Source: an uncultured Bacilli bacterium
GTDB taxonomy: Bacteria > Bacillota_I > Bacilli_A > RF39 > UBA660
Assembly: GCA_910577075.1 (NCBI GenBank)
Contig: CAJTKV010000005.1
Span: forward strand, 680 to 64,679
Reading direction: 5' to 3'
DNA length: 64,000 bases
Shown here: one piece after another, positions 59,703-60,318 of the stretch
Position numbering within the stretch: position 1 is the first letter of the stretch
Layout of the letters: every line of letters starts with the position of its first letter
Notes under the pieces: generated by a model
Seen by the model: the letters and a program-made list of their open reading frames with translations, nothing else
Told to the model about the DNA's origin: nothing
Database searches by the model: none
Program-made: the position numbers and the translations under genes

Positions 59703-60318
59703 TTATAATAATGAACTTAGACCTTGATTTTTTAGGGGTTTACTTATTTCTAAAAATGCCTCTTTGTCTAATTCGTGAACGACATTTTCTTCTTCCCTTG
59801 AATAATCATAAATCGGAAGTTCGCATTTCAATTGTTGCATTATTTCAAGCATCGTACGAAATCTTTTTAATAAAAATAAATTACCACTTTTAGCCCAGTC
59901 ATAGACCATGCATTCAAAGCCAATAATCTTGTCTGGCGATATTTTGTCATATACCTGATACTCATCGGACCAAGCGGTATAACGCAATGGCAAAGGAGTA
60001 CGATTAAATAGACGATAGAAGTTGGATTTTTTGCATTTTATGACCTTTAGATTATCTAAAATTACAAGTGGCCCTGAATTTTTATATCTTGTTAGTGCAC
60101 GATCTTCTCCATCAATATCTTTGGCAATGCTAACGTAATATTTGCCATTTAAACCAAAATTGGGACACGGAAAACTCAAATGGCGCTTTGATAAAATTCC
60201 TTTTTCTAAGATATCAGAGACAAGAGCAAAGTCAAAGCCGTGATAAAACCAATCCGGGTTTTTTTATAATGATATCTTTTTCAATTTTATCTAATTCGCC
60301 TAAATCAATACTATCCAT
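59703..60318 (-). pseudogene. PARP-like (H-Y-E class) mono-ADP-ribosyltransferase, about 204 aa, split by a frameshift at an A7 tract (possibly phase-variable or a sequencing error)
   Basis: GAGGGA RBS before MDSIDLGELDKIEKDIIIKK. After the A7 tract the frame shifts into ..PDWFYHGFDFALVSDILEKGILS (compare PARP1 [22 protein letters not shown]). Further motifs are NFGLNGKYYVS (compare FGKGIYFA) and WSDEYQVYD (compare LYNEYIVYD, the catalytic Glu). Confidence 0.55.

What the first reader, a model, noticed from the sequence alone, without database searches (positions are those of the whole stretch)
60255..60270. Frameshift at an A7 homopolymer splits the ART gene after codon 20
The ORF with a proper RBS encodes MDSIDLGELDKIEKDIIIKK and stops 8 codons later. 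The conserved ART core continues in the +1 frame immediately after the A7 run (T7 on the plus strand at 60260-60266). A single A gain or loss restores a 204-aa protein. This could be a sequencing error. It could also be a slipped-strand phase-variation switch, or a tolerated inactivation of a potentially toxic ADP-ribosyltransferase. DarT-like ARTs are toxic without an antitoxin, and no macrodomain partner is visible here.
Basis: seen in the sequence. Interest (0 to 1): 0.6.

Follow-up and report, generated by a model that had tools for sequence, protein, structure and literature searches.

The report
One-base frameshift in ART-like gene
One extra A in a short run of A's breaks a small gene for an uncharacterised ADP-ribosyltransferase-like protein in this mouse-gut Bacilli genome; near-identical strains all carry the intact gene, so this is an ordinary private knockout or assembly slip, not a genetic switch.

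Summary
On the minus strand, ATG 60318 opens a 20-codon reading frame that runs into an A7 tract at 60259-60265 and stops 8 codons later. The rest of the gene continues in the +1 frame to 59703.

Two corrections apply. Only the loss of one A (A6) restores the 204-aa protein; A8 does not.

The A6 version exists. It is exactly protein P0176, which the index lists in 59 blocks of the collection, most of them mouse-gut assemblies. Sister assemblies differ from the window by 1-3 substitutions and this single indel over 30.5 kb. Every relative examined, across two diverged alleles, has A6. Predicted products of A5 or A8 tracts are absent from about 15 billion proteins.

The family (172 clusters, no Pfam or NCBIfam model) folds confidently. 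It matches only ADP-ribosyltransferases, weakly, and has a conserved H26/Y61/E119 triad. It is not a DarT or a Tpt1 by the tests run, and no conserved partner gene was found.

Best reading: a recent, strain-private slippage insertion that gives a null allele (0.58). An assembly error is the main rival (0.30). Phase variation and programmed frameshifting are not supported. Interest is low.

The parts
60259..60265 (-). A7 homopolymer (T7 on the plus strand). It carries one A more than the A6 found in every related assembly, and this is the frameshifting insertion.
60232..60318 (-). 5' fragment in frame 0: ATG, 20 native codons, 8 out-of-frame codons (PGLVLSRL), then TGA.
59703..60263 (-). Remainder of the gene in the +1 frame (KNPDWFYHGF...SSLL plus stop). 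It contains the conserved H26, Y61-x-S63, R112, E119 and D171 positions. The first in-frame start codon is TTG at 60179, which lies downstream of H26 and has no Shine-Dalgarno-like sequence.
60325..60329 (-). Shine-Dalgarno-like GAGGG, 6 nt upstream of the ATG.
   Evidence: read from the sequence
60338..60366 (-). Promoter-like site (TTGTTA, 17 nt spacer, TG-TAAAAT) upstream of the gene. This is a consensus match only.
59668..59693 (-). Intrinsic-terminator-like hairpin with a T-run directly after the gene's stop codon. The gene is therefore probably monocistronic, and the frameshift should have no polar effect on the downstream RNA-repair gene.
57415..59586 (-). Downstream neighbour, 723 aa: P-loop kinase, metallophosphatase and T4 Rnl1-type RNA ligase. 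This is context only; the adjacency is not conserved across the family.
60473..61030 (+). Divergently transcribed 185-aa protein with no family match. Homologues occur only in the closest relatives, so it is not a family-wide partner.

Best explanation
A single A was inserted by strand slippage into an ordinary A6 run (codons K19-N20) near the start of a normally intact, monocistronic 204-codon gene. This happened very recently and only in this strain or population.

The gene encodes an uncharacterised stand-alone protein with an ADP-ribosyltransferase fold and an H-Y-E-type triad (H26, Y61, E119). It is under purifying selection in the species.

The insertion yields a null allele. Ribosomes starting at the proper RBS make a 28-residue peptide. 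The only downstream start (TTG 60179, no RBS) would give a 158-aa product that lacks strand beta-1 with the invariant W-x-Y-H NAD-site motif.

Nothing indicates that the site is a designed switch.

Shown: the insertion, its uniqueness, the intact ancestral state, and the loss of conserved elements.
Inferred: that the insertion is real rather than an assembly error, and that the protein uses NAD+.
For: 1. The restored A6 reading is letter-for-letter protein P0176 (MCX4365165.1, 'Bacilli bacterium' MAG). The index lists it in 59 blocks of the collection, and 23 contigs were read.
2. The gene plus flanks (770 nt) is identical to L016, L018 and L019 apart from the extra A; L017 also has one substitution.
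3. Against the same-strain assemblies L017/L025 (GCA_948734205.1), 9,298 + 21,200 nt show 3 mismatches and exactly one indel, the extra A. L018/L019 give the same one indel over the first stretch, and L024 gives none over the second. These stretches hold 101 A/T runs of 6 or more. The assembly is therefore not homopolymer-noisy.
4. Real frameshifts do occur in this lineage. A non-homopolymer 1-nt deletion splits a response regulator at about 36980 and is shared by three other assemblies.
5. An independent knockout of the same gene exists. A 28-nt deletion between ATATTAC direct repeats occurs in the other allele in at least two samples. Loss of this gene is thus tolerated in nature.
6. dN/dS between the two alleles is 0.14, and all 25 close homologues are full length. 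The intact gene is therefore functional.
7. The AlphaFold model has pLDDT 88.9. Residues 13-18 and 24-27 are core strands, so the truncated product cannot fold normally.
Against: - Reads are not available, so an isolated consensus error at a homopolymer cannot be excluded.
- The frameshifted product P0003 is on record from one contig only, as expected for an artefact as well as for a private mutation.
- Its source contig could not be retrieved, so coverage and sequencing platform are unknown.
- The ART assignment rests on weak structural matches (Foldseek E about 1e-3, TM 0.3-0.45; profile against PDB E = 0.12) plus motif logic. There is no significant sequence-family hit.
Confidence: 0.58

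Rival explanations
1. Sequencing or assembly artefact. The genome really has A6, the gene is intact, and the extra A is a consensus error at a homopolymer.
For: - The difference is a one-base change in a homopolymer, the classic error site.
- It is seen in a single contig, while the index lists the intact protein in 59 blocks.
- The allele is otherwise 100% identical to intact copies. A pseudogene of any age would have picked up further changes.
Against: - No other indel separates this assembly from its sister assemblies in 30.5 kb containing 101 A/T runs of 6 or more and 35 of 7 or more. The platform and assembly were clearly not prone to homopolymer errors.
- The sister strains differ by only about 1 substitution per 10 kb, so one genuine indel in this span is not unexpected.
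- Natural knockouts of this gene do exist.
Confidence: 0.3
2. Slipped-strand phase variation. The A tract is a contingency switch that turns a potentially costly ART on (A6) and off (A7).
For: - The frameshift sits in a mononucleotide run early in the gene, where an ON/OFF switch would work.
- Two independent loss-of-function alleles hint that switching the gene off can be advantageous.
- The gene shows unusually deep allelic divergence, with dS 0.43 against 0.09 in the neighbouring gene. Conflict-related genes often do.
Against: - The tract is A6 in all 11 other same-species loci inspected, across two alleles.
- No A5, A7 or A8 products, nor any upstream-disrupted form of the other allele, occur among about 15 billion proteins.
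- By established knowledge, A6/A7 is shorter than the tracts of 8-9 or more that give high switching rates.
- Such runs are everywhere here, with 89 runs of 7 or more in 64 kb.
- The run is simply Lys-Asn codons in an AT-rich genome; the family consensus is K-N at this position.
- The second knockout is an irreversible deletion, not a tract change.
Confidence: 0.08
3. Programmed recoding. A +1 ribosomal frameshift or transcriptional slippage on A7 yields full-length protein from the interrupted gene.
For: - A +1 re-pairing of tRNA-Lys on A-AAA-AAA-C is sterically possible.
- The next 0-frame codon, CCC, is presumably rare in a genome of 29.5% G+C (codon usage was not measured).
- The shift window is bounded by a +1-frame TAA just before the run and a 0-frame TGA 8 codons after it.
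Against: - The frameshift is not conserved. Every homologue, including identical alleles, is in frame.
- Rescue at the RNA level needs a one-base deletion. Transcriptional slippage in A/T runs gives mainly insertions and rises exponentially with run length (PMC5574713), so any rescue at A7 would be a trace.
- No stimulatory element was identified.
Confidence: 0.03

Closest known systems
DarT1/DarT2 DNA ADP-ribosyltransferase toxins (DUF4433) of DarTG systems
   Same: - DarT1 is the best structural match (8baq, Foldseek E = 1e-3, probability 0.99).
- It is also the best profile-to-PDB match. The match covers the N-terminal x-x-[FY]-H-x motif and the following helix.
- Both are small stand-alone ART-fold proteins of about 200 aa.
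- The H-Y-E arrangement matches that of DarT2 (PMC11543638).
   Different: - There is no Pfam DUF4433 hit even at E <= 0.1.
- TM-scores are only about 0.35.
- No DarG macrodomain or NADAR gene lies next to it in any of 10 distinct contexts.
- There is no PADLOC defence-system hit.
- Intact copies are maintained without a partner, so it is probably not a growth-arresting toxin in its host.
Tpt1/KptA RNA 2'-phosphotransferase
   Same: - The ART-fold lobe matches structurally (9ldc, 7yw4, 1wfx, 6e3a; E 5e-3 to 3e-2).
- In this species the gene sits next to a kinase-phosphatase-RNA ligase gene, and in L007 it lies near RtcB. This recalls the Tpt1-tRNA ligase partnership.
   Different: - There is no PF01885 hit.
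- The protein begins about 20 residues before the H motif, so it lacks Tpt1's N-terminal RNA-binding lobe, which (from my own knowledge) carries most of the R-H-R-R tetrad.
- The ligase adjacency is lost in more distant members.
- A terminator separates the two genes.
PARP / diphtheria-toxin-like (H-Y-E, ARTD) catalytic domains
   Same: - The conserved elements occur in the same order: H in beta-1 ([FY]-H-G), Y-x-S in beta-2, and an acidic [DN]-E-[YF]-[QH]-V strand.
- From my own memory, and not tested here, the last motif resembles PARP1's N-E-Y-I-V-Y around the catalytic Glu.
   Different: No sequence-level hit was obtained, the protein is much smaller, and it has no regulatory or accessory domains.
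Homopolymer frameshift pseudogenes in AT-rich bacteria, including proposed transcriptional-slippage rescue in Buchnera and Blochmannia
   Same: Both involve a one-base indel in a poly(A) run of an AT-rich genome that interrupts an otherwise conserved gene.
   Different: - The tract here is short (A7).
- Rescue would require a deletion in the RNA, the disfavoured direction (PMC5574713).
- The frameshift is private to one assembly rather than fixed.

Membership tests
ADP-ribosyltransferase superfamily (H-Y-E / ARTD-like) | ART split beta-sheet fold. | tested here: met
   The AF2 model has pLDDT 88.9 and pTM 0.86. All 50 best PDB Foldseek hits are ARTs: DarT1, TreX, KptA/Tpt1, CteC, pertussis, cholera/LT and Scabin, with probabilities of 0.57-0.99. 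However, E is only 1e-3 to 6e-2 and TM 0.3-0.45. Named BFVD hits include DarT, Tpt1 and a PARP catalytic domain.
ADP-ribosyltransferase superfamily (H-Y-E / ARTD-like) | Conserved His (beta-1), Tyr (beta-2) and catalytic Glu (beta-5). | tested here: met
   Across 100 diverse members, H26 is conserved in 88%, Y61 in 89% (plus F in 10%) and E119 in 99%. Each lies in a predicted strand, in the expected order. Equivalence was judged by order and motif, not by atomic superposition.
ADP-ribosyltransferase superfamily (H-Y-E / ARTD-like) | NAD+-dependent ADP-ribosyl transfer activity. | not testable with these tools
   This requires biochemistry.
DarT (DUF4433) toxin of DarTG | Match to the DUF4433 family model. 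| tested here: not met
   The restored protein has no Pfam, NCBIfam or PADLOC hit at E <= 0.1.
DarT (DUF4433) toxin of DarTG | Adjacent DarG macrodomain or NADAR antitoxin gene. | tested here: not met
   Neighbours in the window and in 10 distinct contexts carry no Macro or NADAR domains. The 185-aa neighbour has no family hit, and its model is too poor to judge.
Tpt1/KptA | PF01885 match and a two-lobe architecture with an N-terminal RNA-binding lobe. | tested here: not met
   There is no Pfam hit. Only about 20 residues precede the H motif.
Phase-variable contingency locus (mononucleotide repeat) | Tract-length polymorphism among closely related strains. | tested here: not met
   All 11 other same-species loci inspected have A6. 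Products of A5, A7 or A8 tracts are absent from the protein collection, apart from the single P0003 record.
Phase-variable contingency locus (mononucleotide repeat) | Within-population length heterogeneity in reads. | not testable with these tools
   No read data are available.
Programmed ribosomal frameshift site | The frameshift and slippery site are conserved in homologues. | tested here: not met
   All homologues are in a single frame.

The most novel reading that the evidence does not exclude
The gene may be a costly or conditionally harmful NAD+-using enzyme of an undescribed ART family. Its recurrent natural knockouts (the A6-to-A7 insertion here and the 28-nt deletion elsewhere), together with deep allelic dimorphism, could reflect ongoing selection to switch it off. 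The A tract would then serve as a low-rate reversible switch.
Probability: 0.08. Interest if true: 0.5.

Novelty: new member of a known kind. Interest (0 to 1): 0.17.

Why it matters
The frameshift itself matters little. It is a routine annotation issue: the locus should be marked as a frameshifted pseudogene, or corrected to A6, rather than annotated as a 158-aa protein.

The by-product is of modest value. The interrupted gene belongs to a small, unnamed family with 172 clusters at 50% identity. It has no Pfam, NCBIfam, PADLOC or PHROG model, yet it has an ART fold and an H-Y-E triad.

Family members sit in chromosomal neighbourhoods near DNA- or RNA-repair genes in gut Bacilli. That makes the family a candidate for biochemical characterisation as a nucleic-acid or protein ADP-ribosyltransferase.

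Tried and rejected
- Pfam, NCBIfam, PADLOC and PHROGs scans of the restored protein gave no hits.
- A single-sequence phmmer search against the PDB gave only noise.
- The genome-contig scan returned just three distant loci and not the window's own species.
- Two metagenome contigs DNA-pattern scans for tract-length variants found nothing.
- The contig encoding P0003 could not be retrieved, so the sample, coverage and platform remain unknown.
- The 185-aa divergent neighbour was tested as a possible antidote. It has only 16 close homologues, its AF2 model is unusable (pLDDT 49), and it is absent from distant loci. It was rejected as a family-wide partner.
- A functional operon with the kinase-phosphatase-ligase gene was considered. 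It was rejected as a general feature because a terminator lies between the genes and the adjacency is lost in relatives at 56-62% identity.
- Translation table 4 (TGA = Trp) was considered, because the short ORF ends in TGA. It was rejected because frame 0 meets TGA and TAG again shortly after and never matches the family.
- An alternative placement of the indel in the CCC run would give K-K-P-D-W. It was rejected because identical alleles show A6 followed by CCC.

Full report
**1. What is in the sequence**

The gene lies on the minus strand.
- A GAGGG Shine-Dalgarno-like element (60329-60325) precedes the ATG at 60318.
- Frame 0 reads MDSIDLGELDKIEKDIIIKK, then PGLVLSRL, then TGA at 60234-60232.
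- The run of seven A's occupies 60265-60259, which is T7 at 60259-60265 on the plus strand.
- The +1 frame has a TAA that ends at the first A of the run. It is then open from 60263 to the stop at 59705-59703 and encodes KNPDWFYHGFDF...SSLL.

Removing one A gives ATA AAA AAC CCG GAT TGG and a 204-aa protein. Adding one A enters the third frame and terminates after 37 codons. The in-frame state is A6.

**2. Is it a real departure from the normal gene?**

Yes.
- A search of 5.8 billion clustered proteins found 27 relatives. The 25 full-length ones (195-211 aa) all read straight through the junction, with the consensus M..IDL.EIEKIE....VKNPDWFYHGFDF.
- The cluster look-up showed that my restored A6 sequence is exactly an existing protein: P0176, MCX4365165.1, 'MAG: hypothetical protein [Bacilli bacterium]'.
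- The index lists P0176 in 59 blocks of the collection. Among the places shown are two Japanese mouse-gut metagenomes.
- Over 770 nt of gene plus flanks, L016, L018 and L019 are identical to the window except for A6 instead of A7; L017 also has one substitution.
- A second allele of the same species (P0001, 89% aa identity, 48 index blocks) also has A6, as AAAAAATGCGG.

The hypothesis that the protein starts at an internal codon is refuted. The first downstream start is TTG 60179, with no RBS. It gives the 158-aa product that NCBI carries as P0003, which lacks the invariant W23-x-Y25-H26 motif.

**3. Error or mutation?**

Reads are not available, so this cannot be settled. I measured the background instead.
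- Over 9,298 nt (54703-64000) the window differs from L017, L018 and L019 by 1-2 mismatches and one indel, the extra A.
- Over 21,200 nt (25471-46670) it differs from L025 and L024 by 2-3 mismatches and no gaps.
- L017 and L025 come from the same assembly, GCA_948734205.1. Against that assembly the total over 30.5 kb is 3 mismatches and this one indel.
- These 30.5 kb hold 101 A/T runs of 6 or more and 35 of 7 or more.

The assembly is therefore not prone to homopolymer errors. A single true indel between strains that differ by about 1 substitution per 10 kb is unsurprising.

Two further observations make a genuine knockout plausible.
- The same sub-lineage carries a shared, non-homopolymer 1-nt deletion that splits a response regulator at about 36980. 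It is present in the window, L022, L024 and L025 and intact in five other assemblies.
- An independent knockout of this very gene exists in the other allele. It is a 28-nt deletion between ATATTAC direct repeats in L020 and L021, giving products P0178 and P0177.

Against a genuine mutation: the A7 form is on record from one contig only, and I could not retrieve that contig.

I put a real private mutation at about 0.58 and an artefact at about 0.30.

**4. Switch or recoding?**

Phase variation is not supported.
- The tract is A6 in all 11 other same-species loci inspected, across two alleles whose synonymous divergence is 0.43.
- The predicted products of A5 and A8 tracts, of an A7 tract in the other allele, and of the 5' fragments are absent from about 15 billion proteins.
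- The run is just Lys-Asn codons in a genome of 29.5% G+C that has 89 A/T runs of 7 or more in 64 kb.
- The second natural knockout is an irreversible deletion.

Programmed frameshifting is not supported either.
- It fails its main criterion, conservation of the shift among homologues.
- Transcriptional rescue would need a one-base deletion in the RNA. Slippage in A/T runs produces mainly insertions and scales exponentially with run length (PMC5574713).

**5. What the gene is**

No Pfam, NCBIfam, PADLOC or PHROG model matches. An exhaustive profile search of 1.84 billion representative proteins found only 172 clusters at E <= 1e-3. Most are stand-alone proteins of 180-220 aa. Two proteins of more than 1,000 aa carry the domain at the C terminus, and one is a tandem duplicate.

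The AlphaFold model is confident (pLDDT 88.9, pTM 0.86).
- All 50 best Foldseek hits against the PDB are ADP-ribosyltransferases: DarT1 (8baq) first, then the Rhs toxin TreX, KptA/Tpt1, CteC, pertussis, cholera/LT and Scabin.
- Foldseek probabilities reach 0.99, but E-values are weak (1e-3 to 6e-2) and TM-scores are 0.3-0.45.
- Against viral models, E reaches 4e-6. Named hits include DarT, Tpt1 and a PARP catalytic domain.
- A profile of 100 members against PDB sequences again ranks DarT1 first (E = 0.12), aligned over the N-terminal [FY]-H motif and the following helix.

Across those 100 members the best-conserved positions are:
- H26, 88%
- G40, 94%
- N57-G58
- Y61-[IV]-S63, 89% and 85%
- R112, 94%
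- D118-E119-Y-Q121, with E119 at 99%
- D171, 98%

This is an H-Y-E arrangement in strands beta-1, beta-2 and beta-5.

I estimate about 0.8 that the protein is an NAD+-using ART-fold enzyme. The frameshift removes exactly the strand that carries the His.

**6. Not a DarT or a Tpt1 by test**

- There is no DUF4433 or PF01885 hit.
- The protein lacks the N-terminal lobe that Tpt1 has.
- No macrodomain or NADAR neighbour appears in any context examined.

The neighbourhood in this species is recG, pnuC, GNAT, a divergent 185-aa gene, the ART-like gene, a 723-aa kinase-metallophosphatase-Rnl1 ligase, lemA and TPM.
- Only the position downstream of recG persists at 56-65% identity. It is seen in L007, L010, L012 and L014, but not in L009.
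- The ligase gene drifts away or disappears.
- A terminator-like hairpin (59693-59668) separates the ART-like gene from the ligase gene.
- The 185-aa neighbour has only 16 close homologues and an unusable model.

Intact, partner-less copies under purifying selection (dN/dS 0.14) argue that the protein is not a self-poisoning toxin in need of an antitoxin.

**7. Verdict**

The finding is accurate as an observation and ordinary in meaning. It is a one-base homopolymer insertion, private to one assembly, that inactivates or appears to inactivate a conserved small gene.

The only mildly novel element is the gene family itself, an unnamed ART-fold family in gut Bacilli. Interest is 0.17.

Noticed in passing
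window 36660-37315 (minus strand), indel at about 36980: An OmpR-type response regulator upstream of an intact HisKA kinase (35471-36670) is split into receiver and DNA-binding halves. The cause is a 1-nt deletion, CACG[C]ATC, which is not in a homopolymer. The same deletion is present in three other assemblies (L022, L024, L025), while five others have the intact 214-aa gene. This looks like a genuine lineage-specific pseudogene.
   Followed up: partly
L020:3001-3554 and L021:72-625 (homologous to window about 60090-60120): A second, independent knockout of the same ART-like gene occurs in the other allele. It is a 28-nt deletion flanked by 7-nt ATATTAC direct repeats and yields 74-aa and 91-aa fragments (P0178, P0177). 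It is seen in at least two ENA samples and one NCBI MAG.
   Followed up: yes
window 59500-60400 compared with L002 and L004: The ART-like gene exists as two deeply diverged haplotypes (P0176 and P0001; dS 0.43, dN/dS 0.14). Flanking DNA is 97-100% identical, and the neighbouring ligase gene has dS 0.09. One contig (SRR28217698_580, covering L004 and L024) carries the other haplotype in a background otherwise identical to the window. This indicates local recombination or long-lived allelic dimorphism.
   Followed up: partly
window 57415-59586 (minus strand): A 723-aa fusion of P-loop polynucleotide kinase, metallophosphatase and T4 Rnl1-type RNA ligase. It matches phage family phrog_8238 end to end (E = 1e-204). 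It scores far below the cut-off of bacterial Pnkp TIGR04075 (94 against 750 bits), and no Hen1 is nearby. It appears to be a Pnkp-like RNA-repair enzyme with a different ligase module.
   Followed up: partly
L006:1349-2710, L010:5272-6624, L007:5199-9223, L030:4001-7195: Contexts of more distant family members vary. The NMN/NR transporter pnuC lies directly upstream in L006 and L010. In L007 a UDG-superfamily gene ends about 70 nt upstream of the homologue, and RtcB lies 1.4 kb downstream. In L030 uvrB lies downstream. This is a loose association with NAD-precursor uptake and nucleic-acid repair genes, not a fixed operon.
   Followed up: partly
proteins P0160, P0172 (more than 1,000 aa) and P0129 (373 aa): The ART-like domain also occurs at the C terminus of two very large proteins with no Pfam hit, with the motifs YLHGT...NGNYYICVAK...NEYQVL. 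It also occurs as a tandem duplicate in one protein.
   Followed up: no
protein P0027 (ENA contig of 1,434 nt): The first 44 residues of the P0001 allele are fused to unrelated sequence. This is probably an assembly chimera or a rearranged copy.
   Followed up: no
window 43830-45340 compared with L022: Assembly GCA_026339395.1 differs from the window by a cluster of small indels and substitutions here, while the other sister assemblies are gap-free. This is a local variable patch or lower-quality assembly in that MAG.
   Followed up: no
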